From Patescibacteria group bacterium (GTDB lineage Bacteria; Patescibacteriota; Patescibacteriia; PEXW01), in assembly GCA_038063455.1 (NCBI GenBank), contig JBBTVB010000006.1, positions 39,234 to 103,233 on the forward strand: a stretch of 64,000 nucleotides of DNA, in the 5' to 3' direction. This document shows positions 1 through 57,912 of this stretch, piece by piece. Below the pieces are notes generated by a model. It did no database searches. It was not told where the DNA came from and saw only the letters and a program-made list of their open reading frames with translations. How positions within the stretch are numbered: the first letter of the stretch is position 1; the number at the start of each line of letters is the position of its first letter. The position numbers and the translations under genes are program-made.

Positions 1-1466
1 CATTCTTCTGCCGGGCACGCTCCGTAGCAATCTCCACCTCTTTTTGCAGTTTAACGTTGAAGAGTCGAATCTCTTCGTACAGTCGCGCCTTTTCTAATGC
101 GCTGGCAAGCTGCGGGCCCAGAAGCTGGAGCAAATTCAGGTCGTCGTTGCTGTAGGGGTCGCCAGAGAGTTTGCCGCCCAGCAGCAGGATTGCAGCGATG
201 CGACCTTCGGTGATAACCGGCGACAAGACTGCGGCATTCAATGTATCGAGCTCAGCTTTTGAACGTTCGAGCTCTGACCTATCGTTTGCATTGGTAGTAT
301 CTTCTATACGTCGCTCAAGCGCTTCCAGAACCACAATACGTTTTTCCCGGCTCAGGTAGCGCACCAGTGAACTTGTATGGTCAAGGACGGTTTCTTTAAC
401 ACTGTCAGGCTTTTCTTGAACAAATATAGTGCCACCTTCATCAGGCAAGAGTATGCGCGCGGACTGGATTTTAAGATCACTATCAAGCCGAGCACTCACT
501 TCGGCAAGGAGCTTCTTCAAATCGATTTCTTTGTTGATTATTTCACTTAGCTGCTGGAGGGCTTTGTCGTAGTCTATGGTGGCTTTGAAAAATATTTTAT
601 CTGATATTTTTGCAAAGCTTCTTTTTAAGGGATCTAAAATGAGAACAACAAGTATACTAATAAGTAATATAGAAATATACTGATACACTTTTTCTTGGAC
701 TAATTGAGGAATTACAAATGAACTTCCAACAATCAGCGCGGAAACAATTAGAACCACTAAAGAATATGTGATTGTACGCAATACGATTAATCGTATTTCC
801 ATGAACCTATGTTTTGTTATCGCATAGGCCGTAAAGCCAACAAAAAATAATGTGGAATAACTCCCAAGATTGCTCAAATCAGAATAACCAAGTAAAGGAA
901 GAAGTAGATTTGTTATTATACCAAAAATAATAGATAATACAGTGCCAAAGAAGAGATACTTTATTTGTATCCTCTGAAGACCACTAGTTTTTCTAAAACT
1001 TGAAGCCAGCAAAAAGATGGAAATAAGAATATAAAAAATAAAGTACGCTACAAAAATGTAATAACCCTGGCTAAATATTGGTGCGATTGGGTGAATATTG
1101 ATATCGCCAACACCTGATATAATCTGATTATTAATCGTCAATAACAGAAGTAGTACTGCGGGAATAAATATTAAAAAAAATGTAAACTTTCGAATTCTTC
1201 TTTGAATTGGGAATGTTGCAGTAAATAGCAATAAAAATGTGGGAATGAAAAATGACCATACAAATGTGAGCTTTGTCCACAATAATGCATTTACATTTGT
1301 GCGCGTTTGGTCGACAATGTAATTGCTTACCGTCCAAAGAACAACAGAGACAACAAAACCAAATAAAACGCGGTTAGCTATACTTTTTTTGTTTCTCAAA
1401 AAAACCAAAAGACCAACAAGAAAATTCAAACCAGCTGAAAGAATTAAAACAAACAAATCAAGCATC
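1..1466 (-). CDS. Sensor histidine kinase, N-terminal ~490 aa only (multi-pass membrane sensor domain + GAF; dimerisation/ATPase core lies beyond the left window edge)
   Basis: Minus-strand frame is open from the ATG at 1466-1464 (MLDLFVLILSAGLNFLVGLLVFLRNKK...) to position 1. About 300 aa of hydrophobic helices are followed by a GAF-like segment (...ELDTLNAAVLSPVITEGRIAAILLLGGKLSGDPYSNDDLNLLQLLGPQLASALEKARLYEEI). A coiled-coil HisKA-like start (RLFNVKLQKEVEIATERARQKN) runs to the edge. The architecture resembles PEP-CTERM-system kinase PrsK (TIGR02916), from memory only. Confidence 0.6.
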
Positions 1467-2249
1467 TTAAGCTATATATTTTTTTTCAAATAAGTCTATC
1501 GCAATTACTTCTGGAATCACAGATGACTTCCGTTTACCTAATAAGATGAAAAATGATTCCGCAATCATGATGCTCGAAGCTAGGGTCTGCGCGAGTGCAA
1601 TATTTGGAATCGCAATTTTTTTCATGACCACCTTCTCTATGGTTTCTTGTTGAATGTAACTAGTTCTGATAGGTGCATATTTTTCTGCTGGAACATTTAC
1701 TGCATTTACTTCTTCTCTGTTCATACCATCTTTTAAGCCAAGGAACTCATTAAATGAAAGACCCCTGGGATCAAATATTAATACGGATGCGCCATAGCCA
1801 ATCGCTTGTGGAGCGAGTACAAATTTGTTCTGTTTACGCGCTTCACTAGTAAGAATGTATGAGTAATACAATTCGTTATAATCAATACAATCGTAAATAA
1901 TGTCGGCCTTTGCAACTATTTCAGATACATTCTTTTCTGTAAGACCTTCCGAGTAAACCTTAATACTCGCGGCAGGATTAATATCATTCAAAGTCTCTCC
2001 GACAACTTCTGCTTTATTTCTTCCTATTGTACTTTTAAATGCACAAAACTGGTTATTGATGTTGACATCGTTATATTTATCAAAATCAGCAATAATTAAA
2101 GACTCGATACCAGACCGTGCGAGTATCTGAGAAGAGATGCTACCCATACCACCACAACCTAATACAGCGACCGCCTTTTTACGTAAAGTTTGTTGTTCAG
2201 TTTCAGAAAAAATTCCAATATTGCGGTCAAACATTTCTTCGTAATTCAT
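1467..2249 (-). CDS. ThiF/MoeB/HesA-family E1-like adenylyltransferase
   Basis: 260 aa. Rossmann motif VAVLGCGGMGS and the E1 signature DFDKYNDVNINNQF (D-x-D-x-V-x-x-N-x-N-R/Q) are present. The length is typical of standalone ThiF-like proteins. Confidence 0.8.
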   Translation of the reverse strand: MNYEEMFDRNIGIFSETEQQTLRKKAVAVLGCGGMGSISSQILARSGIESLIIADFDKYNDVNINNQFCAFKSTIGRNKAEVVGETLNDINPAASIKVYSEGLTEKNVSEIVAKADIIYDCIDYNELYYSYILTSEARKQNKFVLAPQAIGYGASVLIFDPRGLSFNEFLGLKDGMNREEVNAVNVPAEKYAPIRTSYIQQETIEKVVMKKIAIPNIALAQTLASSIMIAESFFILLGKRKSSVIPEVIAIDLFEKKYIA

Positions 2250-2255
2250 ATATTT

Positions 2256-2732
2256 CTAATTAAATAGTGTAAGTATAACTTTCAAACCGCCAGAATAAAT
2301 CATAATCCATACAAGAAAGAATAACACATTGTTAGTAAGAACTAAAATAATTCTTTCTTTGGGTGGAAAATCTACCAAAGATATATAAACCGTTGTTGGA
2401 AGCGGACCAATTGTAACAGCTAAAATTAGGGTCGAAATGACCTTCCCATATTTTACGAAACTTTCACGTTTTCTTAATAACTCTTCTTCTTTCCGTTTTA
2501 TCCAACCCTGAGTGAGTACTACGATCTTATTTCCTGAAATTATTTTATTTTGGTAAAGGTACAATATGAAAAAAGAAAGAAGAATAAAAACTATTGAAAA
2601 AATACAAAAGGTGTAGATACTTCCAATGAGTACAATTGAAGATATCAGAAGACCCTCACCAAAGATTACCAACAGTACAGAGCCAATTATTGCAACTAAC
2701 GTCCCTGAAATTTTTACTATGTATCGTATCAT
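2256..2732 (-). CDS. Small integral membrane protein (4 predicted TM), unknown function
   Basis: 158 aa and highly hydrophobic. There is a 4-nt overlap with the upstream acyltransferase gene and a 6-nt gap to the ThiF-like gene, so it is likely co-transcribed. Confidence 0.45.
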   Translation of the reverse strand: MIRYIVKISGTLVAIIGSVLLVIFGEGLLISSIVLIGSIYTFCIFSIVFILLSFFILYLYQNKIISGNKIVVLTQGWIKRKEEELLRKRESFVKYGKVISTLILAVTIGPLPTTVYISLVDFPPKERIILVLTNNVLFFLVWIMIYSGGLKVILTLFN

Positions 2733-3424
2733 GAAATTGAATACCCCTTCTTTTGCTCATCAAATTTAATTGTCGCGTCTTGTAAATACATAAATAGTCG
2801 AGGATTGTTCCTTTGCAAACTTACTTCGAAATCCTTGACACTCAATATACATGGAAAGGTAAGCCCTTGATACAGACTAGGTTGCCCAATTTTTTTAAAT
2901 GGTATACCTATTTTTAGGACTACTGGAAGTAATCGCTCATCCATCACAGAAAATATATTTTTAATATTGTGCTTCTTTACGTACAAAAAAATCCCCTTTA
3001 TTAAAACCAACATTAGATGATGGCGTCTAAATTCTTTAGCTACGATAAGCCTTGAAATTTCAGCTGACTCATTCCTTTGATAATTGTTAACGTTAATGTC
3101 AATATTGAAATGTTTTTCGATCGGAAACCCATTGGGTGAATCAAGTATAAGTCTTACAGTCGCAGCAATTTCCTTCTTTAAATCTCGAATCACAAAATGT
3201 ACCGAAAAAGAATCCCAATTATCTTTTTCACGACCATTTTCTGAAAGATTTTTGTCAATATACTTATACTCCTCAATATAAACTTGATATCTAAGGCGAT
3301 GAAGTTCATCTAACTCATCAGGGTTTTTGGTGGTATAGAATGTAAATTTTTGATAAAAACTTTTATAAAACCACCAGAATTCAATTTCTCTTCGAATTTT
3401 TTTTACCCAGGGGAAAATTATCAT
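2729..3424 (-). CDS. GNAT-fold N-acyltransferase of the N-acyl amino acid synthase / LuxI-like family (Acetyltransf_5, PF13444-like)
   Basis: 231 aa. The segment LHRLRYQVYIEEYKYID...GREKDNWDSFSVHFVIRDLKKEIAATVRLIL matches the conserved RLRyeVF..E.gw....g.E.D.fD...hHlv.....G..RL core of FeeM/exosortase-associated acyltransferases. This is from recall of the family, not a search. Confidence 0.6.
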   Translation of the reverse strand: MIIFPWVKKIRREIEFWWFYKSFYQKFTFYTTKNPDELDELHRLRYQVYIEEYKYIDKNLSENGREKDNWDSFSVHFVIRDLKKEIAATVRLILDSPNGFPIEKHFNIDINVNNYQRNESAEISRLIVAKEFRRHHLMLVLIKGIFLYVKKHNIKNIFSVMDERLLPVVLKIGIPFKKIGQPSLYQGLTFPCILSVKDFEVSLQRNNPRLFMYLQDATIKFDEQKKGYSIS

Positions 3425-3441
3425 TGTTTTCTATACTTTTA

Positions 3442-4854
3442 TTATATTGCTAATTGCTCATCAGCATTATTTCTTAGTTTCAGCATATTTTCTGACAAAA
3501 TCACCCCTAGTAGAACGGGAATAATTTTCACCTGCGCCTCACGTAAAGATAGAAACAAATCGCTGTCTAACCTAACTTTATTACCGCTTAACAGCGCGAA
3601 ACCCAAAATATCCTCGCCTTTCCCAAATGGGGTAACAATATCAATCTTTTTTGCCTTAAGGTACTTGTAGGCAACAGCACACTCTTTACGCTCGTTAGAT
3701 AGCCCCTCCTCGCTACGCAGGGCTAATTCTTCGGTTACCAATATTTGCCCTGTCCGTTTTAAAATCTTAATGAATACCTGGCTATTATTAATCTTCTCAG
3801 TAGATGAGAAAGCTGTAAAGTTTAAGTTTGTCTTATCGACAAAATATACGACAGAACTACTAAAATGATACTCTTCTCTAAAGATTTTCTCTAGGCCCAT
3901 GATAAATTCTTTTACTGAAGTTTTTTGTACTATCTTAGGCAATACTAACATGGATTCAATCCGCCTCTCCTCGTGTGTTCGTAAAAAGTTCTGTGCCTTG
4001 GAAATAACTGTAGGTATGGTAAGTAATGCAAAAATTGCCGAGAGCGCAGATGGCATCAAGACTCTTATAAATGCATCTTTTGTTGCAACAACAGCATGCA
4101 AAACCATAAAGAGGATAGCGTATGCAATGCCAACCAAAATATACAGCGCCAGCGTAGCAACTGATGTGCGAAAAATTAGACGTATGCCCAAAAAGCGATA
4201 CCGCGTAATTGCATAGGCAGCAAGTCCTACAAAAATACAAGAAAATGTTGAGTCTAGAACATTCACCTGCACACTGTTTGCGAGCATGGGAAGAACAAAG
4301 TCAACAAAAATTACAGGGGCTACCGGCAACAGTAATGCAAGGGTAACTAATCCGAATTGTTTTCTTCTCAATCCATTTTCTCGATGCCATGCTTTTGCAA
4401 TATGATAAATTGCCAGAAGAAGCAGACCGGCCACCCAGAAAGCGTAGATAGAAAATAGCGGCCCTAATTCACCATACGAGGCACTTTCTTGCGCTGTCTG
4501 TAAGAAAGACTGCACCATTAAACCTGGTACAAATGTAAACAGCGCAATCAAAAAGGTTACAACGAGTACGCAAAAAATTAAAAATTTGCTTAGCGGCCGT
4601 TGAATCAACGATCTTATCCAAATATAATTGAATCCGGCTACTAAAGAACCTAACGCAAATGTCAACGCGAGAAAGGTAAATGAATTTACTTGGTATAAAC
4701 TTAAAAAACTCGCAAAAGCCCAGGTGCTTATGGTAAACGCTACCAGTGCAAACCACCTCCTATAGGCCACGCCCTTTGCGCGTGTTGCTACAAAAATACC
4801 TAGACTAAGATTGGCTACACTGGAAAGAAGGGCAAAAAATTGGATGATGTTCAT
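3442..4854 (-). CDS. Multi-pass membrane sensor + C-terminal GAF protein (kinase-less paralog of the histidine kinase at 1-1466)
   Basis: 470 aa with about 8 hydrophobic helices. It ends in a GAF-like stretch (KIDIVTPFGKGEDILGFALLSGNKVRLDSDLFLSLREAQVKIIPVLLGVILSENML), and the stop comes right after the GAF with no HisKA/HATPase. Confidence 0.6.
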   Translation of the reverse strand: MNIIQFFALLSSVANLSLGIFVATRAKGVAYRRWFALVAFTISTWAFASFLSLYQVNSFTFLALTFALGSLVAGFNYIWIRSLIQRPLSKFLIFCVLVVTFLIALFTFVPGLMVQSFLQTAQESASYGELGPLFSIYAFWVAGLLLLAIYHIAKAWHRENGLRRKQFGLVTLALLLPVAPVIFVDFVLPMLANSVQVNVLDSTFSCIFVGLAAYAITRYRFLGIRLIFRTSVATLALYILVGIAYAILFMVLHAVVATKDAFIRVLMPSALSAIFALLTIPTVISKAQNFLRTHEERRIESMLVLPKIVQKTSVKEFIMGLEKIFREEYHFSSSVVYFVDKTNLNFTAFSSTEKINNSQVFIKILKRTGQILVTEELALRSEEGLSNERKECAVAYKYLKAKKIDIVTPFGKGEDILGFALLSGNKVRLDSDLFLSLREAQVKIIPVLLGVILSENMLKLRNNADEQLAI

Positions 4855-4855
4855 A

Positions 4856-6292
4856 CTAAGTTGATACCTGCTTCTGTGCTGCTACAATCGCGTTGTAATA
4901 CATAACCGAGGTTTGAATATGCGGAAACAAATCTTTACGGATTTTGCGCGCAAAGGCAACATCTTCTTCGCTATAAATATTACCACCCTTTCTTTTGCCT
5001 AATACAATTGCCCCAAAAAACTGATCGCCCACTCCAAATGGAATAAGCATGCTTATGTTATTTTTCTCTAAAATTCCATAAATCTTTTGCAAAAGAATTG
5101 CTTCTTCATCATTTAACCCTTCCGCTTCCAGAATTATTTCTTCTGCAATACGTACATCCTCAAATTGTCTTAGGCACTGGAAAAAAGGGTCCTGATACGA
5201 AAACACAGATTTATACGCATGACCCGCAAAAGGCTCTAAAAAACCAGTCTTGCGGTTATACCAAATAAAACCCATCTCTTTAACTTGGAACTGCTTTTGT
5301 ATTTGTGGCAATGCTTCGGCCATAAGCTTTTGTAAGGGTAGCTCGGGCTTCCCTTTAAGGATCGGTGCATCAACTTTAGGTGCTTTATACAGGGGCGGAA
5401 AAATAACAGTTGTAAACAAATACTGAATACCTTGGCGCAGAAGAAACGCCAAACCAATCCCAAATATAAAAAGAATGCTAAATGCAGCCTCACTATTCAA
5501 ACTTACAGTTTCAACAAGGTACCTAAATGTTTGAAGTAAAGATATAAGCAATATTCCACCTGCCCCACCGTAAAAAATTGTGTATACAAATGCTCGACCC
5601 ACTGCTTGTCGAAGGTTCAATAATCTATAGCGGAAAATTGCCCGTATACTAAGTAAGCTAAACAACAAGCCTGTGTTTGAAAAAAATATATACGCATCTG
5701 GGCTAATAGGACTCACTATTGATACGTATGCGCTAAGAATTACCAAAAAAACCATTGGTAACAAAAAACCAAGTGCAACATACTCTAGTTGCTTTTTTTT
5801 AATACCTGTCGAAGCTTTGTAATTTTTAAAAATTCCCATACAACCCAATACTACTATGATGCTTATTCCAGAAATGTAAATCGCGTAGTAACTTGGAGTA
5901 AAGCTCAAAAACTCATCTTTATTTGGAAAAAAATCGGTAACAAATGGTAGTACTATTACAACGCCCGTAACAAAAAACTGTAGGAACGAAAAAAAATTTG
6001 ATTTTATGATTTTAACAGGAAAACGCCAGCTAAATTGTGTGAATGAAAAGGCGACGAGTACAGCTGCGATAAGATCGATGGCAGATAAAATTGAATTCAC
6101 CCTTCCACCGGAGACAACTAGTGCGTCGACATTCACGGACAAAAGCCAAAGGAACGAAAATAATATTACAAAAAAATAATACCTGCCTCCAATATTTTTC
6201 CTCCAACCTTTTATGGCTAAATATCCAACAAACACAAAAAGTCCGACGTTAACGGCGGACAGCAGGTAAATTGCCAGGCGGATTGAGTTCAT
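4856..6292 (-). CDS. Multi-pass membrane sensor + C-terminal GAF protein (second kinase-less paralog)
   Basis: 478 aa with the same architecture. The GAF-like C-terminus reads ISMLIPFGVGDQFFGAIVLGKRKGGNIYSEEDVAFARKI. The gene stops 1 nt before the next gene's start at 4854. Confidence 0.6.
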   Translation of the reverse strand: MNSIRLAIYLLSAVNVGLFVFVGYLAIKGWRKNIGGRYYFFVILFSFLWLLSVNVDALVVSGGRVNSILSAIDLIAAVLVAFSFTQFSWRFPVKIIKSNFFSFLQFFVTGVVIVLPFVTDFFPNKDEFLSFTPSYYAIYISGISIIVVLGCMGIFKNYKASTGIKKKQLEYVALGFLLPMVFLVILSAYVSIVSPISPDAYIFFSNTGLLFSLLSIRAIFRYRLLNLRQAVGRAFVYTIFYGGAGGILLISLLQTFRYLVETVSLNSEAAFSILFIFGIGLAFLLRQGIQYLFTTVIFPPLYKAPKVDAPILKGKPELPLQKLMAEALPQIQKQFQVKEMGFIWYNRKTGFLEPFAGHAYKSVFSYQDPFFQCLRQFEDVRIAEEIILEAEGLNDEEAILLQKIYGILEKNNISMLIPFGVGDQFFGAIVLGKRKGGNIYSEEDVAFARKIRKDLFPHIQTSVMYYNAIVAAQKQVST

Positions 6293-6408
6293 AGGCAGCA
6301 GTTCATCAGAAGTGCCCAGATTTTGGGCAGTCCCCTAACTGGGGAATGGTTGACGTTTGCCGCCTACATTATGCAAGATTTTGGGGGAAAGGGCAAATTG
6401 TAAAACGG

Positions 6409-7134
6409 CTATTGTGAGCCTGTACCCCTACTAACCTGAATTCTTGGAATCGATCCAGAAAAAACGACATGAAGGTTGTGGTAGCTCCCTTTTTCACTCC
6501 TCCAAACATTAAAAAAATTAAACTTACTCCAGGTCCAAACCGCCACTGCATGGCCCTTACAGGCACCATTATCCTGATATGAACCTTCAAGTACAATCAA
6601 ATCATCTTGACCATCTGCATCTGCATCGGTAATAGCCAGCGAACAATTAGGGGTGTCCAAATTTGAAGATTGCCAAGCCGGAAAAAGACCAGTTTCAGTT
6701 ACGTTGTAAACAAACAGGTGATTCTTAACGGAGATATCGTTCTCTTCCTCTTTCACCCAAAATGGCCGCGACGCGCCATAGTCACCTGGCTTCCATATAA
6801 CCATAACAAGTTGCTGGCCCAAACCCATAACATTGCCAAAAGCCATTGCAGTTACTTGCCAATCCTTTGGTGAAGACCATTTTTGAATGCCAGACTCACC
6901 AACGGTAAGTAAACCATTACGCAATGTATACGTTTCTTCTTTGCCATTCCCATTCAGGTCAGCTTGCGTCTTACTAGGTGCAGCCGTTCGATTCCCGGGT
7001 CGTACCTCATGGAATTTTTGTTGAGTGTTGTTCCATTGCCAAGCGGTCTCTTTGGGCTGGGTGCTTGATAGAAAGCGAATCATCAACAGAACAACAGCAC
7101 TTACAACTAGTAAAGGCCATTTTTCGCACGGCAT
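6409..7134 (-). CDS. Secreted FG-GAP/VCBS-repeat protein with N-terminal signal anchor
   Basis: 241 aa with an N-terminal hydrophobic segment. Ca-binding FG-GAP-like motifs DLNGNGKEE and ITDADADGQDDLIVLEG are present. Confidence 0.5.
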   Translation of the reverse strand: MPCEKWPLLVVSAVVLLMIRFLSSTQPKETAWQWNNTQQKFHEVRPGNRTAAPSKTQADLNGNGKEETYTLRNGLLTVGESGIQKWSSPKDWQVTAMAFGNVMGLGQQLVMVIWKPGDYGASRPFWVKEEENDISVKNHLFVYNVTETGLFPAWQSSNLDTPNCSLAITDADADGQDDLIVLEGSYQDNGACKGHAVAVWTWSKFNFFNVWRSEKGSYHNLHVVFSGSIPRIQVSRGTGSQ

Positions 7135-7137
7135 CAG

Positions 7138-9390
7138 CTACTGTGCAGAAATACTCTGCAACCACTTATCAACTGCGGGAACGCTAGATTGATTTTCATA
7201 GCGCTTATTAAGAATTTCTCGCCAAGTCGTATCGGTGAGCCGATCTTTGGCCGGATGAATGAACTCATAGTGCGAGTACACTCCACCCTTTGCAAGCCGA
7301 AGCTTGCCTTCTACCGGGACGACGACATAGATTGATAGGATGTCGCCAGTTGCCTCTTGTAATACTGTGCCATTCGGGTCCGTTGCTACATCAGAAACGA
7401 GTGCCGCGGGATTTTGATCCAAGTAGTTTATTTGATCAATTCCAGCCTTTTTCATCTCCTCGCGGTTTGCTTCAAGCCAAAAGTGCTCCAGAGATCCACC
7501 GAACGTACGGATAAACTCATAATCCTCCTTAGATATTTGAGCGCCATTAAGCTCCTTTTCCGCAATACTCTTAAGACGACGGCTGAGCGTTTCTAATCGA
7601 GTTAGATTTTCCGCAAAGGCAGAGCTTATTAAGCCTCGGATTTGCAGCCCCTCCTTTGTGAAAAGCGCCAGTGAAGCAAGTCGCGCAAAAACTTCGGGCT
7701 CGGGTTCCACGTAACCGCGATCATCGAGTTCATCCGGTGGGCCGCCACCTAGCTCAGAGTACGCCTGCTTTGCGTATAAAACCGTATCATGCTTTAGCTC
7801 TGTCCAACTACTTAAGTAAGTATTCAGATTCTTCCATTGCCACGCAGTGGATCGCATGAAGCTTGGGTAGCCGTAATCACGCTCCAGCGTAAGGGGCTGA
7901 AGCGCATACAGCCAACTCCAGTACAAATTCTGCGTCCAATGCTCAACTCTAATTTTGCTGGTGTAGTCTCGCATAACTTGTATCTGCTCTGGGTACAATT
8001 TGTACTCCGTCTCACCCATGTTCGTCAGCAATTCTAGTGCGGCGTCTGAACCCATAGCTGCGGGGATGTCCAAGGCTTTGGGCAGCATGCGTGATTCTGG
8101 CACATTACCCCCGCACTTCATGGACCCACTTTTTGTGCCGACCTCACGACAGATAAGACGTTGAAAAATGGAGGCATCCAAAGTAAACCGCTGGCCCATG
8201 AAGCGAAAACCTTTAATACTTTCTTCCCGATTACTATTCGGATCTACAGAAGGAGCTAAGATCGGAATGGAGTTAATCTGGGGCGGTGCTAGTTTTTTAG
8301 CGTCGCTAACGAACGCTGAAAATACCGCATCATTTCCGGCTACCTTCAAAATATCAAAAGATTTGTAGTGTTTGTTTATTAGGTTAAAAAAATCAATATA
8401 TGTGATGTCGTCGCTCTCGCCAACAAAAAATTTCGTCGGTTCATAAATTGTGTTCCAGAGTTTTGCATTCTTTTCATCTTGCATTGCTAGAGTTATAAGG
8501 ACGGCCGAACGAACTTCTTCCGGATTTTTTACAAGAAAGGTCAACCGACCGTACCACATCATCGTTTTAAAGTAAGTTTTGAGCAGATCCGTTTTATCAT
8601 AGTGACCTCGGGGAACGTATTGCGTAAAATCCTCCATCGTCGAATTCTGATTGCCAAGCTGCATGACTGCTGAATACCCATCTGCTCTCTCATGCGCTGA
8701 TATACTCTCAAGGTCCGCAATAATGGCGGATGTAGGCGCAGTTGAAGGCAGCGCAGCATTTGAATCGAGCAGGCGGGCGGCTACTCCAAAGAAACCAGCA
8801 TTACGGGTGGCCGCATTTTCCCACCCAGTGCCTTTAAGTTGTGTTGCATATTTGTCGGAGGTGGAAAGAAGGTTCGCGGTAAGTTCTTTTAGCGCCGAAT
8901 GTAGATGATCTTCTTCAACTCTCTTTAGAAGGTAGTCGTAGAAAACGTGGTACGTATGGAGCACCGAATCTGTCGTGACAAAACTGGGGGCATACCCATA
9001 ACGATTTCTTTCATAGATTGGATAAAATTCATCTTGCCCAAAACCCTCTGCGATTACAAAGTCATTCTTTTCAACCAAAGCCTTCTGGGCATCAGAAAGC
9101 TCAAATTGTGTTCTATTAGTAACATTTGTTAAGTCTTTCTCGACTTTATATTCTTTTACAAGCGGTTTTACGTTAGTCGATGTTGGCTTGTAGGTAGCGA
9201 AATTTGATGCCTGTGCTTTTGGAATAGAAAGGGGGGCCGGCTTGGTTATGTTCTCATCTGTAGCCTCCGCTGTTACCGAAGAGCCCTCGCGGGCATCCTC
9301 GTGCTTTAAATAGGAACTCAATATAGAGCCGCCGCTTACTAAGATGAGCAGTACGACAGCTAATAGAAAAAATTTCTTACTTAAGTACAT
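7138..9390 (-). CDS. Large secreted / membrane-anchored protein of unknown function (possibly DUF3160-like)
   Basis: 750 aa. An N-terminal signal anchor (FFLLAVVLLILVSGG) is present. The stop is 4 nt before the downstream FG-GAP gene start. The family assignment is from memory only. Confidence 0.45.
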   Translation of the reverse strand: MYLSKKFFLLAVVLLILVSGGSILSSYLKHEDAREGSSVTAEATDENITKPAPLSIPKAQASNFATYKPTSTNVKPLVKEYKVEKDLTNVTNRTQFELSDAQKALVEKNDFVIAEGFGQDEFYPIYERNRYGYAPSFVTTDSVLHTYHVFYDYLLKRVEEDHLHSALKELTANLLSTSDKYATQLKGTGWENAATRNAGFFGVAARLLDSNAALPSTAPTSAIIADLESISAHERADGYSAVMQLGNQNSTMEDFTQYVPRGHYDKTDLLKTYFKTMMWYGRLTFLVKNPEEVRSAVLITLAMQDEKNAKLWNTIYEPTKFFVGESDDITYIDFFNLINKHYKSFDILKVAGNDAVFSAFVSDAKKLAPPQINSIPILAPSVDPNSNREESIKGFRFMGQRFTLDASIFQRLICREVGTKSGSMKCGGNVPESRMLPKALDIPAAMGSDAALELLTNMGETEYKLYPEQIQVMRDYTSKIRVEHWTQNLYWSWLYALQPLTLERDYGYPSFMRSTAWQWKNLNTYLSSWTELKHDTVLYAKQAYSELGGGPPDELDDRGYVEPEPEVFARLASLALFTKEGLQIRGLISSAFAENLTRLETLSRRLKSIAEKELNGAQISKEDYEFIRTFGGSLEHFWLEANREEMKKAGIDQINYLDQNPAALVSDVATDPNGTVLQEATGDILSIYVVVPVEGKLRLAKGGVYSHYEFIHPAKDRLTDTTWREILNKRYENQSSVPAVDKWLQSISAQ

Positions 9391-9456
9391 AAATAATATT
9401 CATACTACGAAATTTGACTTTGGGGATACTGAATATTCCTCCCATTCCAGAGTTCA

Positions 9457-10065
9457 CTAGTAAAAATTGAAAGAACTGAGAGTTTTATTGTACTCCTCTT
9501 CAAATGTTTCAAAGGCGCTCTTTGCGCCAACACTACCTGTTATTTGAATTGCAACATTTCCCTTCTTAACACTTGCAACAACAAAAGGAAATGTAAAAAA
9601 CTCCGATACTGTGCGTATCGCCTCTTGACCATCAACTACGACCGCTTTTTGAGATCGAATTGTATTGTCCTGCACCCCCTCCGCTGCAAGAGTTTGAAGA
9701 CTTACGCTGGGATCAATGTGTTTGGCGGCTATCGTGAACTTTAGTCCAGCCAGCAATTCAGTATCAACATTTTGTACTGCCGCGATCGGGTCAAGAAAGG
9801 AAATCACTTCGCTGTTTGCGAATGGTTCAAGCGTCCATGAGGCGGGAATGGAAATACTATACCTATAGTTGGTATTTGTTAAAACATTTTTCTCTTTGCC
9901 TATAGAGTACACTACCGATGATACCTGGCTCTCAACTTGAGTTCCCTGTTTATCTTTCTTCGTCAACCAAAAAGCCGTCCCAATAGCACCTATTGCAAAG
10001 AAGGCTGTGATAAGAACATAGTGCACGCTGCGGTATGAGAATGAAAGGTGAAATGTATTTTGCAT
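9457..10065 (-). CDS. Membrane-anchored hypothetical protein
   Basis: 202 aa with one N-terminal TM helix (VLITAFFAIGAIGTAFWL) and a soluble C-terminal domain. Confidence 0.4.
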   Translation of the reverse strand: MQNTFHLSFSYRSVHYVLITAFFAIGAIGTAFWLTKKDKQGTQVESQVSSVVYSIGKEKNVLTNTNYRYSISIPASWTLEPFANSEVISFLDPIAAVQNVDTELLAGLKFTIAAKHIDPSVSLQTLAAEGVQDNTIRSQKAVVVDGQEAIRTVSEFFTFPFVVASVKKGNVAIQITGSVGAKSAFETFEEEYNKTLSSFNFY

Positions 10066-10149
10066 ATGATAGGAGTTGAGTATAGTAATATTTTTAATAA
10101 GGGGGAGGCAATAATGTCTTACCTCCCCTAGTATAGCAAGTGAAGTGAC

Positions 10150-10836
10150 CTACTGCGTACTCATACATAATTGGTTGGATGAGTAGTAACTATTAATTAA
10201 CAGGGGGTCCTTTCCAGAAATACCATTCTGTATCACGGAAGACCCTTTCCTATACACCACAAAATGGATATGCGGTGTAGTGGTTCCAGTATTTCCGACT
10301 TGACCCAAATATTGCCCTTGAGAAACCCATTGCCCAACGCTTACAGCAATACTGAGCATATGGGCAATGCGGTATCTATATCCATTGCCCGCATCTACAA
10401 GGATGAAATGGCCATAACCTGTCCAACCGCGAACAACTTGGATAACAGTGCCATTCGCCGGAGCAGGAATAGCGTGACCATAATCTTGCCAACCAGGCAA
10501 GCTCCAATCAACAGCGTTATAGTCAGACCCCGTATGATAGGATGACCCACCATTAGGCCCATACCCTGCAGAAATGTAGTAACTTCCACAGAAGGGAAAC
10601 TTCCAACCACCAGGATACGCATTGTAACTCGCCGTCGCCATCCCCTGCCGCTGGTCGCGCGTGCCAGTGATGGAATCGGTTGAGGTCTGGGTATTGTCCA
10701 TTGCCGCAGCAACAGACTCGATCGGGTTGGAAGATTTCTCTTCCGAGCAGCCAACCAGCAGGTTAGTTGCGTAGATGCCAGCCACGAGGGCCAGCGTGAG
10801 CACGAGGGTGTTCCTCGATTTCATGATGTAGTCCAT
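10150..10836 (-). CDS. M23 (LytM-type) metallopeptidase lipoprotein
   Basis: Lipobox LLVGCS is present. The M23 motifs are HTGSDYNA (HxxxD) and GNTGTTTPHIHFVVY (HxH), with a conserved GYGHFILVDAGNGYRYRIAHM core. Confidence 0.85.
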   Translation of the reverse strand: MDYIMKSRNTLVLTLALVAGIYATNLLVGCSEEKSSNPIESVAAAMDNTQTSTDSITGTRDQRQGMATASYNAYPGGWKFPFCGSYYISAGYGPNGGSSYHTGSDYNAVDWSLPGWQDYGHAIPAPANGTVIQVVRGWTGYGHFILVDAGNGYRYRIAHMLSIAVSVGQWVSQGQYLGQVGNTGTTTPHIHFVVYRKGSSVIQNGISGKDPLLINSYYSSNQLCMSTQ

Positions 10837-11048
10837 TCTGCAAGCCCTCGAGGCTTGCGGGTGTTGTGTTTGTACTCAGACAGTTGTTTTTCCTCGTGTT
10901 CGCGGTACACGGGCACCGGTGGTAGGTCTGCCAGCCTTTCCAGTTCTAGCAGAATGCACCTCACTTTCTTGGGAATGTACGTTGTGGGTTTATGAGGGAC
11001 TATTCCCTCGGGTGTTTGTTTACAAATGTAGGCTAACACGAATATTTA

Positions 11049-11133: not shown

Positions 11134-11724
11134 TTATCGCTTTTTCCAGCCCTCATCCTGGTCTACCAAGCGGTCTTTAATGACCTTGCGCAGGTAGTCC
11201 GCCTTCTTCAGTTTCGCTTTCTTCGCCCGCCAATCCAGGTAGTCATTGAGCTCTTTGGTTAAGCGGAAGGTAAATTTAATGGTCGGCAATTCCTGCGTCT
11301 GCTCTGCCTCGAGTGCGTTTACAAAATCCGTCACCATTTTTTGTGCTTGATTGCCGCCGTAGCTGTGTACTTTAATTGTGCTGGAGATGTTTTTCCCTTC
11401 CAAAAATTTTAGGACTCCGCGGTTCGAAATGTCTTTATCATACAAGTACAACGTCGGACGGCGCTGGCTTATGGCGTAGGCCAGCAAGTAGCCCAGGTCG
11501 GCATCTGGCGTGGAGCCTTCAATAATGAACGCGTCCATCTTGTCCAGCAAGCTGCCGCCCTTTTCCGCAATTTCATCCATCTCGGCTTTGGGCATGTCCA
11601 AACTATTCTGCCCGTCGTTCGTAATAAAAAAGGTGTGTCGGTCTTTCAGCACACCAAGCAAATCCTGGCGCACATTGGCCAGTCGCTCTTTGCTGCTCGG
11701 AGCTTGGAAGTAGTACACGCGCAT
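11134..11724 (-). CDS. Nucleoside 2-deoxyribosyltransferase-like domain fused to C-terminal ribbon-helix-helix DNA-binding domain
   Basis: The N-terminus has VYYFQAP...DAFIIEGSTPDADLGYLLAYAISQRRPTLYLY, an NDT-like Rossmann core (D..GT.fElGyA...gKP). The C-terminus KFTFRLTKELNDYLDWRAKKAKLKKADYLRKVIKD is a CopG/Arc-type RHH. Confidence 0.55.
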   Translation of the reverse strand: MRVYYFQAPSSKERLANVRQDLLGVLKDRHTFFITNDGQNSLDMPKAEMDEIAEKGGSLLDKMDAFIIEGSTPDADLGYLLAYAISQRRPTLYLYDKDISNRGVLKFLEGKNISSTIKVHSYGGNQAQKMVTDFVNALEAEQTQELPTIKFTFRLTKELNDYLDWRAKKAKLKKADYLRKVIKDRLVDQDEGWKKR

Positions 11725-11726
11725 AC

Positions 11727-12737
11727 CTAGGTGGGGCTAACTACTTCCCCGGCCTGGTCGGCCAGCATGAAGGTCCTCAGCTTAGCCAGGGGTAGTTTTG
11801 CGCCTAACCCCCACATGAGTTTGACCAGCGTCACTTCCATGCTCATGCGGTTGATAAAAACCCGATTTGGGCCAGAGACAGGTGGCGACGACACACCCCG
11901 GCTGTAAATGACAACTGGCACAGACCCATCTATGCGACTATCGAGCATACTGAGAAACCGCAGGAGTGTGCCGAGGTCGGCATACCGCACCACAAAGCCG
12001 TGCGCGCGCTGCAAATCCATACGCTCAAAGGTATGCAAATCTACACCGGGTTGCAGGTCGATAAGCTGCACGCGGTCATCAGCGGCGACTTTAATGGCGG
12101 GTAACGTGGAATTGCGTTTTGGCGCAGTTGGCAGTAAACGAACCCCTAAGGTGAGCGAGCCAACGTACTCATCGCCAAGCGCGTCAAAGAAGTTCGTCGA
12201 CACATCGTCCGAGCGCACAGCCCGTACCGCCTTGAGCAAACGATTACCAAACATAATAAGCACGCCCGAAACATCGAGCGTGGCGGTTTGGATGGCGTTG
12301 AGTAAATGGACTTTATAGCCGAGCTGGCCAAATTGGTCTAAAAATGAATCCAGCTTTACGGCCACTTTCGAAACGAGATTTGCCCCAGAGGCTGTGAGTA
12401 CTACCGGTTTGCCCAACCCGCGGAACATCATGGCCAGCATGCTGCCGGTGTAGGCCATGGTTTCCAGGTCATGGATGACGACAAAACCATCATACCGACG
12501 CAAGCCACTGCGCAACACGCTTCCCAGGCGTACCCAGTTTTCCGCCGACGTTACCGGCCCTTCGGTTGGCACGAATTGTACATCGACATTGGCTAGCACC
12601 TGCAACTCCGCATGTCTTTTTGCCCAGGTGTCTAACACTTGTCGTTTTGGGTTTTTTGTACGTATGCCAAGGTCAGGCAGGATTGAGCTGCCGAATAACA
12701 GAATTGCGACTTTTTTCCGGGCTACGATCTTTGCCAT
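11727..12737 (-). CDS. L-asparaginase-like family protein (catalytic Thr of the TGGTIAG motif apparently absent)
   Basis: 336 aa. VAILLFGSS...YDGFVVIHDLETMAYTGSMLAMMFRGLGKPVVLTAS aligns to the asparaginase/GatD N-domain (HGTDTMaytA...KPVVlTGS). Its stop abuts the start codon of the 11134-11724 gene, with only a 2-nt gap. Confidence 0.55.
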   Translation of the reverse strand: MAKIVARKKVAILLFGSSILPDLGIRTKNPKRQVLDTWAKRHAELQVLANVDVQFVPTEGPVTSAENWVRLGSVLRSGLRRYDGFVVIHDLETMAYTGSMLAMMFRGLGKPVVLTASGANLVSKVAVKLDSFLDQFGQLGYKVHLLNAIQTATLDVSGVLIMFGNRLLKAVRAVRSDDVSTNFFDALGDEYVGSLTLGVRLLPTAPKRNSTLPAIKVAADDRVQLIDLQPGVDLHTFERMDLQRAHGFVVRYADLGTLLRFLSMLDSRIDGSVPVVIYSRGVSSPPVSGPNRVFINRMSMEVTLVKLMWGLGAKLPLAKLRTFMLADQAGEVVSPT

Positions 12738-12816
12738 TGGTATTAGGGTACTGCGACGGCTAGCTGTTGGTCAATAAAATGTATACCTCGGGTATCCCCT
12801 ACGATTTACTGGTTCC

Positions 12817-12871
12817 CTCCCCTCCTTATCTAAGGAGGGGCAAAAAATTACCATTACTTAATGCGTAAGAC
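12817..12871. repeat. Left flank of DUF559 cassette: hairpin CCCCTCCTTA-TC-TAAGGAGGGG plus inverted 9-mer ATGCGTAAG
   Basis: A perfect 10-bp-stem hairpin lies at 12817-12838. 'atgcgtaag' at about 12859-12867 is the reverse complement of 'cttacgcat' at about 13365-13373. Confidence 0.6.
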
Positions 12872-12917
12872 TTTTTCTGCGACTACTCTGCTCACCGTCA
12901 AGCTCCTGGGGTGGTAA

Positions 12918-13325
12918 CTACGGACAAGGGTGTTGCAACGCACAACGTATGTAGTCTAAAGCGCCGTACTGGTTAACGCTAATCGATCGGGCAGAGAGGC
13001 GTATTACACGAAGCCCGAGTTGCTCCAAATATCGGTCGCGCAATCTGTCTTTTTGTATTTTGCCTGGCTCTCCGTGCTGGTCACCATCAACTTCAATGAC
13101 GAGGCGTTTTGCTGGACAATAGAAGTCAACAATATACCTGCCAATACTATGTTGACGTCTAAATTTTGCACCGAGTCCTTTGCCTTTGAGATGCGCCCAA
13201 AGTACAACTTCTGGCGGCGTCATATTTTTGCGCAGTTGCCTGCGGTACATTGCTAACCGGGTATGATTATGTATAGCTTGGGTCATAATAATTACCACCC
13301 CGGCTCCCGCTGTGGCGGGATCCAC
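12918..13325 (-). CDS. DUF559 / Vsr-like (PD-(D/E)xK) endonuclease-domain protein
   Basis: RRQHSIGRYIVDFYCPAKRLVIEVDGDQH fits the DUF559 core. The true start is probably one of the internal Met codons at 13286 or 13250. Confidence 0.6.
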   Translation of the reverse strand: MDPATAGAGVVIIMTQAIHNHTRLAMYRRQLRKNMTPPEVVLWAHLKGKGLGAKFRRQHSIGRYIVDFYCPAKRLVIEVDGDQHGEPGKIQKDRLRDRYLEQLGLRVIRLSARSISVNQYGALDYIRCALQHPCP

Positions 13326-13329
13326 CCCT

Positions 13330-13375
13330 CCTTATGCAAGGAGGGGAAGGGTAAGTTACATCCAAATAGCTTACG
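13330..13375. repeat. Right flank of DUF559 cassette: hairpin CCCCTCCTTA-TG-CAAGGAGGGG plus 9-mer CTTACGCAT
   Basis: Same hairpin stem as at 12817-12838, with a 2-nt loop difference, followed by the inverted 9-mer. Confidence 0.6.
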
Positions 13376-13379
13376 CATA

Positions 13380-13799
13380 CTACTTAGTACGCAAATGCAT
13401 CGTTCGACGAAAAATATCTTGTACTAGGACGAGGATAAAACCGGTTAGCCATGCGGCGATTACGATTATGAGTCCAAACCAAGGGTAAAGAGCATCCATG
13501 TCATAGCGGCTATAGGCTGATCCGGCGGGTGTCGTTTGTGTCACCCAATACTTGAAAGCGAATGGGGAAAGAGCACTCAAGATGACGAAAAAACTTCCCA
13601 GCATTATTCCGAGCCGAAAGAATTTTTGCTTCATCGTGCCAGATATGAACGCAAAGACCACGGCAAGGAGAACTGGCAGGATGACCTGGGCGAATGTTTT
13701 TACTGTTCCGGTATCGCCAATGTCCTTACGGAAATAGATGAGCGCTGCAGACAGTATTGCACCGAACACGCCTATGACGATGGGGAAATATTTTTTCAT
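13380..13799 (-). CDS. Small integral membrane protein (4 TM), unknown function
   Basis: 139 aa and hydrophobic, on the same strand as its neighbours. Confidence 0.45.
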   Translation of the reverse strand: MKKYFPIVIGVFGAILSAALIYFRKDIGDTGTVKTFAQVILPVLLAVVFAFISGTMKQKFFRLGIMLGSFFVILSALSPFAFKYWVTQTTPAGSAYSRYDMDALYPWFGLIIVIAAWLTGFILVLVQDIFRRTMHLRTK

Positions 13800-13887
13800 A
13801 CTCGAGGGATAAATTGAGATGCCGCCGCGTCCTTTAGGGAGTTGACTGGCATAGAAGGTCGTCCAAAAGTATGGACGACCCGAAGAA

Positions 13888-57702: not shown

Positions 57703-57835
57703 TCCTGGCCTGGCGGGAATAGGGATTCCCGCCTACGCAGAAGGATTGTAGTGACTAACCATTGACAGTCCTACGACGATCCATTCACAAAAATTCCTAG
57801 CGACTTAAGTCGCGTAGAACAAACAGGGCAAACTT

Positions 57836-57870
57836 TGACAAAGAAAGAAGTCCCCTGTTAAAATTTGCAC
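57836..57870 (+). promoter_or_regulatory. Near-consensus sigma70 promoter TTGACA-N17-TAAAAT upstream of small membrane-protein gene
   Basis: Sequence is ttgacaaagaaagaagtcccctgttaaaat. It is followed by the RBS GGAGG and a GTG start at 57913. Confidence 0.5.
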
Positions 57871-57912
57871 AAAGAAAATGGGACCTAACAAAAATAGAGA
57901 AGGAGGCCTAAA

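What the first reader, a model, noticed from the sequence alone, without database searches (positions are those of the whole stretch)
280..620. Abrupt composition switch inside the sensor kinase gene
Seen in sequence: the minus-strand reading frame is continuous from 1466 down to 1, and I verified the translation through the junction. Nucleotides 1-360 look GC-rich like the rest of the chromosome, while everything from about 540 to 6300 looks strongly AT-rich, both judged by eye. The switch maps within the GAF domain. The amino-acid composition of a TM domain alone cannot explain a shift of this size that also covers the following soluble proteins (ThiF, GNAT). Inference: the kinase is a recombinant. 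A native GC-rich kinase core was joined to a horizontally acquired AT-rich sensor cassette, and the two truncated paralogs are further sensor-only copies.
Basis: partly seen in the sequence, partly recalled or inferred. Interest (0 to 1): 0.55.

Follow-up and report, generated by a model that had tools for sequence, protein, structure and literature searches.

The report
Swappable sensor-and-enzyme cassette in a kinase gene
The sharp GC drop inside this Patescibacteria sensor-kinase gene is real and marks the edge of an AT-rich, replaceable block (the kinase's membrane sensor plus neighbouring small-molecule enzymes) that differs between close relatives, much like the variable signal/receptor loci of quorum-sensing bacteria.

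Summary
GC falls from 0.555 to about 0.30 inside one intact reading frame. At synonymous sites the 943-aa kinase has three zones, with GC3 of 0.26, 0.44 and 0.70 and change points after codons 292 and 412 (window about 589 and 229).

It is not an assembly chimera, and amino-acid content does not explain it. The same step recurs in more than 15 orthologous loci from other Patescibacteria (Kerfeldbacteria-like) assemblies.

Relatives whose kinase cores are 73-95% identical to this one have unrelated 7TM sensors (21-40% identity). They also carry different enzyme genes directly upstream:
- FeeM + ThiF
- FeeM + methyltransferase
- alpha-oxoamine synthase, with or without an SDR
- glycosyltransferase
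- PS decarboxylase, and others

Sensor type predicted enzyme type in two blind checks. Cassette GC3 stays at 0.21-0.38 while host GC3 ranges from 0.33 to 0.71.

However, the cassette belongs to a lineage-wide, old, hypervariable locus. I found no evidence for a recent foreign import.

My best reading of function is inferred, not shown: each cassette encodes a lipid-like signal and its matching receptor module, analogous to agr, comQXPA or cqsA/cqsS.

The parts
2..229 (-). Start of the conserved, host-like (GC3 about 0.70) kinase core: codons 413-488 in the window. It holds the last two beta-strands of GAF1 and the long signalling helix. The gene continues off the window edge through GAF2, HisKA and HATPase_c to codon 943.
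   Evidence: GC3 change point after codon 412. Mean pairwise identity of 0.8-1.0 in the close clade from residue 421 onward. Strands at 413-419 and 422-429 and a helix at 440-487 in the model. Full domain set on L001.
230..589 (-). Intermediate mosaic segment (codons 293-412, GC3 0.44): the juxtamembrane linker plus the N-terminal two thirds of GAF1. This segment type is shared with some relatives (87% L003, 75% L007, 69% L013) but not with others (47-53%).
   Evidence: Homology breakpoints at window 606/615 (L003, L007), 343 (L006) and 210 (L005).
590..1465 (-). Hypervariable AT-rich membrane sensor module of the kinase (codons 1-292, GC3 0.26), a HisKA_7TM-type bundle of about 8 helices.
   Evidence: PF16927 at 58.9 bits against a cut-off of 28.6. 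Helices 2-291 in the AlphaFold model, mean pLDDT 84.9. Identity to the sensors of relatives whose cores are 73-95% identical is 21-40%.
1467..2249 (-). ThiF-family adenylyltransferase (260 aa, GC3 0.30), a cassette enzyme.
   Evidence: PF00899 at 119 bits.
2256..2732 (-). Small 4-TM protein (158 aa, GC3 0.27) of unknown function; a cassette member.
   Evidence: No family hit. A 43% homologue sits in the same position in L024/L035. Hydropathy scan.
2729..3424 (-). FeeM/LuxI-like N-acyl amino acid synthase (231 aa, GC3 0.29), a cassette enzyme.
   Evidence: PF21926 at 60.7 bits. TIGR03694 at 132.9 bits against a cut-off of 111.95.
3442..4854 (-). Sensor-only paralog par470 (7TM + GAF-like, no kinase domains; GC3 0.37). 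It belongs to the conserved framework of the locus.
   Evidence: PF16927 at 42 bits. 23% identity to kinase aa 5-431, E 2e-15. 82% nt identity to the L003 paralog.
4856..6292 (-). Sensor-only paralog par478 (GC3 0.34). Its N-terminal 7TM half is itself replaced relative to L003.
   Evidence: 19% identity to kinase aa 6-463, E 3e-7. blastn homology to L003 covers only the C-terminal half.
606..3515 (-). The block replaced between this genome and its closest sampled relative (L003/L004, kinase core 95% identical). Here it holds FeeM, TM158, ThiF and kinase codons 1-286. There it holds a methyltransferase, an unknown 257-aa protein and a different sensor.
   Evidence: blastn L001 vs L003: homology at 6781-8735 and 11644-14060, none in between. 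Gene lists.
6398..11014 (-). Intermediate-GC indel on the far side of the locus (FG-GAP-like, DUF3160, o202, M23 peptidase). It is absent from L003/L004 between the o196 gene and the paralogs.

Best explanation
SHOWN. The composition switch is the 3' border of a hypervariable, AT-rich cassette embedded in a conserved locus of Kerfeldbacteria-like Patescibacteria.

The order seen in several loci, with lineage-specific genes inserted in others (including this window), is: asparaginase-like gene, o196, one or two sensor-only 7TM-GAF paralogs, 1-3 small-molecule enzyme genes, then a 7TM-GAF-GAF-HisKA-HATPase kinase.

The cassette consists of the enzyme genes plus the kinase's own membrane sensor (codons 1-292). 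In many lineages it also includes most of GAF1 (to about codon 412-420).

The cassette has been replaced many times by recombination. The breakpoints fall in two conserved patches: the TM-to-GAF linker, and the last beta-hairpin of GAF1. The kinase core is inherited with the genome.

Sensor type co-varies with enzyme type.

Cassette GC3 (0.21-0.38) does not track host GC3 (0.33-0.71).

INFERRED.
- Each cassette encodes a matched pair: enzymes that make a lipid-like small molecule, and the membrane sensor module that detects it.
- In this genome the molecule would be an N-acyl amino acid made by the FeeM-like synthase, perhaps cyclised or activated by the ThiF-like enzyme as in mycobacterial tyz/trz oxazolone synthesis.
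- Cassette turnover would then create private signalling channels, as in the agr, comQXPA or cqsA/cqsS systems.
- The constant AT-richness most likely reflects one of two things. Either very divergent alleles escape homologous recombination and GC-biased gene conversion, or the cassettes circulate as a shared mobile pool.
For: Not an artefact.
- An identical 14.7-kb Logan contig spans the junction with 0 mismatches.
- A second GenBank MAG encodes identical ThiF and GNAT proteins and an identical kinase from codon 317 onward, its annotated start being the TTG at codon 316 (consecutive accessions MEK7570508-10).

Decoupled histories.
- The C part has hundreds of roughly 940-aa orthologues, up to 95% identical. 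The N part finds 7 hits, the best at 53%.
- Among 83 full-length orthologues, the 21 pairs with C >= 90% identical have a median N identity of 34%.
- Single-linkage clustering at 45% identity gives 56 sensor types, and 15 types among the 17 closest relatives.
- Diversity in residues 1-210 is the same within the close clade as across the whole family: 0.18-0.33 versus 0.15-0.34.

Breakpoints coincide with the GC steps.
- Nucleotide and amino-acid identity steps fall at codons about 287-300 or about 420.
- GC3 change points fall at 292 and 412.
- In the model these are the end of the last TM helix and the start of the last GAF1 hairpin.

Different enzymes lie directly upstream in each relative.

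Co-variation of sensor and enzymes.
- The query's sensor type (P0034, P0061, P0077, P0080, L024/L035; N 42-54%) is the one found beside ThiF homologues.
- Two predictions made from sensor type alone held. P0087 has an AOS upstream, and P0050 has FeeM + methyltransferase upstream.

Lateral exchange. Some pairs are more similar in the sensor than in the core: P0035-P0087 at 59 vs 49, P0023-P0026 at 93 vs 85.

Composition. Across 13 loci the kinase C part tracks housekeeping GC3 (rho 0.68, p 0.011). The sensor and the enzymes do not.

Chemistry and analogues.
- A FeeM-like synthase plus a ThiF-like cyclase make N-acyl oxazolones in M. tuberculosis (PMC10404671, PMC12856293).
- ComP has a variable N-terminal sensor and a conserved cytoplasmic part, with pherotypes (PMC4008528).
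- agrBDC co-evolve and recombine separately from agrA (PMC8768832).
- CqsA is an AOS-family synthase paired with the membrane kinase CqsS (PMC3285556, PMC3376566).
Against: - No signal, receptor specificity or regulated output has been demonstrated.
- No response regulator is adjacent to the kinase in any locus listed.
- No relative closer than about 82% nt identity was found, even in the metagenome scan. Within-species polymorphism, which defines pherotypes, is therefore untested.
- Some cassette enzymes look like membrane-lipid head-group enzymes rather than signal synthases: PS decarboxylase, PlsC-type acyltransferase, HAD, NAD-synthase-like.
- The tyz/trz desaturase (nitroreductase family) is missing here.
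- Same-type sensors in distant lineages are about as diverged as their cores (N 45-52 vs C 49-61). Long vertical retention with sorting of old alleles therefore explains much of the pattern without frequent transfer.
- For this particular genome, the direction and date of any swap cannot be determined.
Confidence: 0.6

Rival explanations
1. Same mosaic cassette, different function. The enzymes remodel the cell's own or host-derived membrane lipids or envelope, and the co-varying 7TM module monitors that membrane state, or a host lipid during episymbiosis. There is no cell-to-cell signal.
For: Several cassettes encode lipid head-group or acyl enzymes: PS decarboxylase, PlsC acyltransferase + HAD, AOS + a KdsR-like reductase, and a glycosyltransferase. 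FeeM relatives include OlsB-type ornithine-lipid acyltransferases, as weak hits. The tyz/trz oxazolones were described as lipids whose roles are still unknown (PMC10404671, PMC12856293).
Against: This does not by itself explain why more than 50 sensor types are kept, nor why sensor and enzymes are exchanged as one unit. The gene order (synthase genes immediately upstream of the receptor kinase) matches known autoinducer loci.
Confidence: 0.25
2. One reading: a single, fairly recent horizontal acquisition of an AT-rich sensor cassette from a foreign low-GC donor, fused to a native kinase core in this genome only.
For: The GC3 step is 4 SD below the window background. The N and C halves have different nearest relatives.
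Against: The step recurs at every orthologous locus examined that lies in a GC-rich host, with different cassettes; in low-GC hosts it is weak or nearly absent. The best relatives of the cassette proteins are only 51-65% identical, and all are Patescibacteria. There is no integrase, tRNA or flanking repeat.
Confidence: 0.08
3. No exchange at all. The sensor region diverged in place under relaxed or positive selection, with a local AT-biased mutation regime.
For: Third-position identity in the conserved core is only about 50-70% between relatives. An unconstrained segment could therefore reach about 30% amino-acid identity over the same time.
Against: The adjacent genes belong to different enzyme families, which divergence in place cannot produce. 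The same sensor type, with the same enzymes, recurs in lineages whose cores are only 49-61% identical. Some sensor pairs are more similar than their cores.
Confidence: 0.04
4. Artefact: either a chimeric assembly joining two organisms at window about 300-600, or a composition effect of transmembrane amino-acid usage.
For: The window is from a MAG, and reads could not be inspected.
Against: The ORF is intact across the junction, and conserved motifs span it. An independent Logan contig is identical, and a second MAG encodes the same proteins. The same architecture and GC step appear in more than 15 other assemblies. Synonymous codon choice differs for the same amino acids, and the soluble enzymes are equally AT-rich.
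Confidence: 0.01

Closest known systems
Bacillus comQXPA pherotype locus
   Same: A variable block covers the signal-production genes plus the N-terminal multi-TM sensor of the kinase ComP, while the cytoplasmic kinase part is conserved. The genes are adjacent on one strand (PMC4008528).
   Different: The comQXPA signal is an isoprenylated peptide, and the response regulator ComA is adjacent. Pherotypes there are shown within a species and by experiment. Here the neighbours are small-molecule enzymes of many families, no adjacent regulator was found, and variation is documented only between species.
Staphylococcus agr specificity groups (agrBDC variable region)
   Same: The signal-processing genes and the receptor-kinase sensor co-evolve as a unit and recombine independently of the conserved remainder. 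Types do not follow the genome phylogeny (PMC8768832).
   Different: agr uses a peptide thiolactone signal, has four groups, and has an adjacent AgrA. Here there are at least 56 sensor types among 83 proteins, with non-peptide chemistry.
Vibrio/Legionella cqsA-cqsS and lqsA-lqsS alpha-hydroxyketone systems
   Same: An alpha-oxoamine-synthase-family autoinducer synthase is encoded next to a kinase whose multi-TM domain binds the hydrophobic product (PMC3285556, PMC3376566). Several relatives of this locus have exactly an AOS gene directly upstream of the kinase.
   Different: The AOS genes here score 148-202 bits on the CqsA-type model, against a cut-off of 428, and score better on BioF/Kbl models. 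The sensor is HisKA_7TM + GAF, not the CqsS 6-TM type. The cassette in this window is FeeM + ThiF, not AOS.
Mycobacterial tyzACB / trzAS N-acyl oxazolone pathways
   Same: A FeeM-like N-acyl amino acid synthase is paired with a ThiF-like ATP-dependent cyclase (PMC10404671, PMC12856293). The same pair is found here.
   Different: There is no nitroreductase-family desaturase in this cassette. A 4-TM protein sits between the two genes instead. The ThiF scores only 43 bits on the Rv1355c-family model, against a cut-off of 476. No kinase linkage is described for tyz/trz.
PEP-CTERM/exosortase PrsK kinase and TIGR03694 acyltransferase
   Same: The FeeM-like protein passes the TIGR03694 cut-off. The best curated match of the sensor module (aa 12-466) is PrsK, collinear over multi-TM + GAF.
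   Different: The PrsK score is 37.9 against a cut-off of 300. The exosortase/PEP-CTERM context was not looked for, and no hypervariability is described for PrsK.

Membership tests
HisKA_7TM-GAF sensor histidine kinase | N-terminal PF16927 7TM region above the gathering score | tested here: met
   58.9 bits against 28.6. Eight long helices at residues 2-291 in the model.
HisKA_7TM-GAF sensor histidine kinase | GAF, HisKA (H-box) and HATPase_c domains | tested here: met
   GAF_2 at 52.7, HisKA at 57.6 and HATPase_c at 98.3 bits, all above their cut-offs on the full 943-aa protein. The H-box SHQLRTP is visible in the sequence. The model matches solved GAF domains, TMt 0.6-0.74.
Pherotype-type signal/receptor locus (agr, comQXPA) | The variable block spans the signal-production genes and the sensor half of the kinase, with the kinase half conserved | tested here: met
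Pherotype-type signal/receptor locus (agr, comQXPA) | Sensor type co-varies with the production genes | tested here: met
   ThiF type: 6 kinases linked to ThiF homologues by contig or locus tag, plus L024/L035. FeeM+MT type: 3 of 3. The P0011-type AOS: 2 of 2, including two predictions made in advance.
Pherotype-type signal/receptor locus (agr, comQXPA) | Alternative types segregate within one species | tested here: inconclusive
   The closest relative has 82% nt identity in the core. The metagenome scan found none closer.
Pherotype-type signal/receptor locus (agr, comQXPA) | Cognate response regulator encoded in the locus | tested here: not met
   No Response_reg gene appears next to the kinase in any listed locus.
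Pherotype-type signal/receptor locus (agr, comQXPA) | The product of the neighbouring genes specifically activates the cognate receptor | not testable with these tools
   Needs biochemistry.
tyz/trz N-acyl oxazolone biosynthesis | FeeM-type N-acyl amino acid synthase | tested here: met
   PF21926 at 60.7 bits against 27.
tyz/trz N-acyl oxazolone biosynthesis | ThiF-like cyclase of the TyzB/TrzS kind | tested here: inconclusive
   The ThiF domain scores 119 bits. The Rv1355c-family model scores 43 against 476, and PRK08223 scores 184 against 266.
tyz/trz N-acyl oxazolone biosynthesis | Flavin-dependent (nitroreductase-family) desaturase | tested here: not met
   No cassette ORF has such a domain.
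CqsA/CqsS-type alpha-hydroxyketone system (seen in relatives, not in this window) | Synthase reaches the CqsA/LqsA equivalog score | tested here: not met
   NF005526 scores 148-202 bits against 428. BioF/Kbl models score higher.
PrsK / PEP-CTERM system | Kinase reaches the TIGR02916 cut-off | tested here: not met
   37.9 bits against 300.
PrsK / PEP-CTERM system | TIGR03694 acyltransferase | tested here: met
   132.9 bits against 111.95.
PrsK / PEP-CTERM system | Exosortase and PEP-CTERM proteins in the genome | not tested
   Not searched for.
Integrative genomic island | Integrase, tRNA target or flanking direct repeats | tested here: not met
   No tRNA lies before 44.5 kb. There are no significant flanking repeats. 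None of the eight ORFs scanned against Pfam (window 2-9390) has an integrase or transposase domain.

The most novel reading that the evidence does not exclude
Kerfeldbacteria-like Patescibacteria carry a multi-chemistry 'private channel' signalling system. One conserved kinase core is combined with dozens of interchangeable modules. Each module consists of a 7TM(-GAF) receptor and the enzymes for its own lipid-like autoinducer: N-acyl amino acids or oxazolones, their methyl esters, amino-ketones or sphingoid-like bases, glycolipids. The stand-alone sensor-only paralogs would act as extra receptors or decoys.

If true, this would be a small-molecule counterpart of peptide pherotypes in the candidate phyla radiation. 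It would also be a natural library of matched membrane-receptor/ligand pairs.
Probability: 0.35. Interest if true: 0.85.

Novelty: new variant of a known kind. Interest (0 to 1): 0.65.

Why it matters
- Signalling in CPR/Patescibacteria is almost unknown. These cells are tiny, are often episymbiotic, and depend on other cells for lipids.
- A conserved kinase whose membrane sensor is exchanged together with lipid-type biosynthetic genes gives testable candidates for how they recognise kin or hosts.
- It also offers many natural sensor/ligand pairs built on one signalling chassis.
- For genome interpretation, it is a clear case where an intragenic GC step marks a long-lived hypervariable segment rather than a recent foreign import.
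- It is also a case where gene callers appear to truncate the gene at the step.

Tried and rejected
- Literature searches for this locus found no description of it. The terms covered quorum sensing + CPR + histidine kinase, HisKA_7TM, and PrsK + acyltransferase.
- Tortosa 2001 (PMC94899), which I wanted for the GC content of comQXP, is not held.
- The look-up of the contig of the second MAG protein P0008 failed. Only its accessions were recovered.
- The promoter/terminator scan was at shuffle level: 23 sites against 21.5 expected, and 6 against 6.3.
- The repeat search gave only short, chance-level pairs.
- PADLOC gave only generic E1 and HATPase hits, so no defence system was recognised.
- Foldseek hits of the TM bundle to GPCRs have TM-scores of about 0.3. 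I treated them as generic helical-bundle similarity.
- The metagenome scan gave more cassette types but no strain-level relatives.
- I considered that the sensor-only paralogs are silent donor cassettes for gene conversion, in the manner of pilS. I set this aside because they are only 19-23% identical to the kinase.
Full report
**Observation**

The window is the reverse complement of contig CAYIMS010000001.1 (418 kb) of the Patescibacteria MAG GCA_964364675.1. GC in 200-nt windows falls from 0.555 at 1-300 to 0.325 at 501-700. It stays at 0.275-0.44 to about 6300. Most of the remaining window is at 0.50-0.60.

The minus-strand ORF starts at the ATG at 1465 and is open to the window edge. On the contig it is a 943-aa protein with these domains:
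- HisKA_7TM, aa 7-224
- GAF, aa 315-458
- a second GAF, to about aa 665
- HisKA, aa 696-764
- HATPase_c, aa 814-921

Third-position GC has three zones of 0.257, 0.442 and 0.704, with change points after codons 292 and 412 (window about 589 and 229). The log-likelihood ratio is 74, against a permutation maximum of 9.9.

The same amino acids are encoded differently on the two sides. The G/C-ending fraction is 0.33 vs 0.78 for Leu, 0.19 vs 0.88 for Val and 0.22 vs 0.93 for Thr. The soluble FeeM and ThiF genes share the AT-rich usage. Other hydrophobic proteins in the window have GC3 of 0.45-0.68, and the background is 0.604 +/- 0.083.

**Artefact excluded as far as possible without reads**

- A Logan assembly of run ERR3858126 gives a 16-kb contig identical over 14,693 bases across the junction.
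- A second GenBank MAG encodes identical ThiF and GNAT proteins and an identical kinase from codon 317 onward, its annotated start being the TTG at codon 316 (consecutive accessions MEK7570508-10).
- The same intragenic step appears in every orthologous locus fetched from other samples where the host genome is GC-rich. It is weak or nearly absent in the low-GC hosts (L012/L034, L028).

**Two halves, two histories**

Residues 401-943 find hundreds of Patescibacteria proteins of about 920-950 aa, at 95, 91, 91, 87, 81% identity and downward. Residues 1-310 find seven proteins. The best is 53% identical and comes from a Candidatus Kerfeldbacteria MAG.

In an alignment of 83 full-length orthologues:
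- Relatives with cores 73-95% identical to the query have sensors only 21-40% identical.
- The 21 pairs with cores >= 90% identical have a median sensor identity of 34%.
- There are 56 sensor types at 45% single linkage, and 15 types among the 17 closest relatives.

Diversity in residues 1-210 is as high within the close clade as across the whole family. Identity jumps to 0.8-1.0 from residue 421.

Nucleotide homology to relatives begins at window 606 (L003), 615 (L007), 343 (L006) or 210 (L005). Sliding identity steps fall at codons about 290-300 or about 420. These coincide with the two GC3 change points.

In an AlphaFold model (mean pLDDT 84.9), codon 292 is the end of the last membrane helix. 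Codon 412 is the start of the last beta-hairpin of GAF1, which leads into a long helix at 440-487.

Two sequence patches conserved in all types are plausible homology anchors for recombination: residues 211-240 and residues 271-315. No integrase, tRNA or flanking repeat is present.

**The cassette includes neighbouring enzymes**

Directly upstream of the kinase, different relatives carry different low-GC3 genes:

| Locus | Genes directly upstream of the kinase |
|---|---|
| This genome | FeeM-like N-acyl amino acid synthase (passes TIGR03694), a 4-TM protein, ThiF |
| L003/L004 | methyltransferase + unknown 257-aa protein |
| L005, L027, L029 | FeeM + methyltransferase |
| L006, L010, L028, L037 | alpha-oxoamine synthase (AOS) |
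| L007 | AOS + KdsR-like SDR |
| L013 | AOS + amidohydrolase |
| L008 | macrolide-type glycosyltransferase |
| L012/L034 | GNAT-like + methyltransferase |
| L032 | GNAT-like + phosphatidylserine decarboxylase |
| L031 | NAD-synthase-like + dehydrogenase |
| L017 | PlsC acyltransferase + HAD |
| L030 | two unknown ORFs |

Between this genome and its closest relative, the replaced block is window 606-3515.

**Sensor and enzymes travel together**

The query's sensor type is shared, at 42-54% identity, with P0034, P0061, P0077, P0080 and L024/L035. These are the kinases that sit beside the closest ThiF homologues (59-65%). In L024/L035 they sit beside the same FeeM-TM-ThiF trio, at 56, 43 and 59% identity.

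I then predicted from sensor type alone that P0087 would have an AOS upstream and that P0050 would have FeeM + methyltransferase upstream. Both predictions held.

**How old, and from where**

Same-type cassettes in distant lineages are about as diverged as their cores: N 45-52% against C 49-61%. The types are therefore old. For this genome I cannot say whether it kept or gained its cassette.

Some pairs are more alike in the sensor than in the core (59 vs 49; 93 vs 85). This points to some lateral exchange. All relatives are Patescibacteria, and no foreign donor is indicated.

Across 13 loci, cassette GC3 is 0.21-0.38 whatever the host's housekeeping GC3 (0.33-0.71). The kinase core tracks the host, with rho 0.68. 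Third positions in the core are already heavily substituted between relatives. A resident cassette should therefore have drifted toward host composition unless something holds it back. I suggest two candidates, both my inference:
- The cassette escapes homologous recombination, and hence GC-biased gene conversion, because the alleles are too divergent.
- The cassettes circulate as a shared AT-rich pool.

**Sensor-only paralogs**

par470 and par478 align collinearly with kinase residues 5-463 at 23% (E 2e-15) and 19% (E 3e-7). That span is exactly the variable module, and they lack kinase domains.

Comparable proteins of 430-485 aa precede the enzymes in most relatives. par470 is 82% nt-identical to its L003 counterpart. 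The 7TM half of par478 is itself replaced. They are maintained genes, not truncated copies.

**Mechanism proposed (inferred)**

The tight same-strand gene order, with gaps of -4 to 17 nt, suggests a single operon. Combined with the sensor-enzyme co-variation, it fits a matched signal/receptor unit.

A FeeM-type synthase plus a ThiF-type cyclase are known to make N-acyl amino acid-derived oxazolones (PMC10404671, PMC12856293). AOS-family synthases next to membrane kinases are the cqsA/cqsS and lqs design (PMC3285556, PMC3376566). A variable sensor half with a conserved kinase half, co-evolving with the production genes, is the comQXPA and agr design (PMC4008528, PMC8768832).

Points against full membership of these families:
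- no adjacent response regulator
- no peptide signal
- no within-species data
- curated equivalog cut-offs not met for CqsA, PrsK or Rv1355c-type ThiF
- no desaturase

The main functional rival is sensing of the cell's own membrane or of host lipids. The presence of PS-decarboxylase and PlsC cassettes supports that rival.

**Verdict**

The 'acquired island' framing should be replaced by a lineage-wide hypervariable sensor-plus-enzyme cassette. I found no description of this locus in the literature held. I rate it a new variant of a known kind, a polymorphic signal/receptor locus, with moderate-to-high interest.

Noticed in passing
window about 520 (codon 316 of the kinase); proteins P0008, P0019, P0028, P0046, P0049, P0052-54, P0067, P0068: GenBank annotation of a second MAG starts this kinase at a TTG at codon 316 (628 aa, MEK7570508.1), right at the composition switch. 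Many NCBI-annotated orthologues are 588-722 aa instead of about 940. Gene callers may be systematically cutting off the AT-rich sensor.
   Followed up: partly
window 6398-11014: A 4.6-kb intermediate-GC block (FG-GAP-like, DUF3160, a 202-aa protein, M23 peptidase) lies between the o196 gene and the sensor paralogs here. It is absent at that position in L003/L004. A DUF3160 gene is upstream of the paralogs in L028, so this is an indel of uncertain direction.
   Followed up: partly
window 5469-6171 (par478 codons about 41-275): The 7TM half of the sensor-only paralog par478 has no nucleotide homology to its L003 counterpart. Its C-terminal half and all of par470 are 82% identical. This is a second sensor swap in the same locus.
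   Followed up: partly
window 57700-59000: A separate AT-rich islet (GC 0.385 at 58-59 kb). It contains a 177-aa minus-strand ORF (58482-59015) with GC3 0.25, the lowest in the window outside the cassette.
   Followed up: no
L008, L010, L012, L017 record titles: Several MAG records that clearly carry this Patescibacteria locus are titled 'uncultured Gammaproteobacteria bacterium'. One orthologue (P0059) is labelled Izemoplasmatales. These are probably labelling or binning errors.
   Followed up: no
L031, L032, L033, L037 (JGI sample Ga0172379): One metagenome holds at least four different orthologues (77-82% core identity to the query). The three whose upstream region is held (L031, L032, L037) carry different cassettes: NAD-synthase-like + dehydrogenase, GNAT-like + PS decarboxylase, and AOS. 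Related lineages carrying different cassette types therefore co-occur.
   Followed up: partly
window 2729-3424 and kinase aa 12-466: The FeeM-like protein passes the NCBIfam model for the PEP-CTERM/exosortase-associated acyltransferase. The best curated match of the sensor module is the PEP-CTERM kinase PrsK, far below its cut-off. This hints at an old link between this acyltransferase family and multi-TM-GAF kinases.
   Followed up: partly
window 2256-2732: A conserved 4-TM protein of unknown function lies between FeeM and ThiF (43% homologue in L024/L035). It has no family match. It could be an exporter, an immunity factor or a membrane scaffold for the pathway.
   Followed up: no
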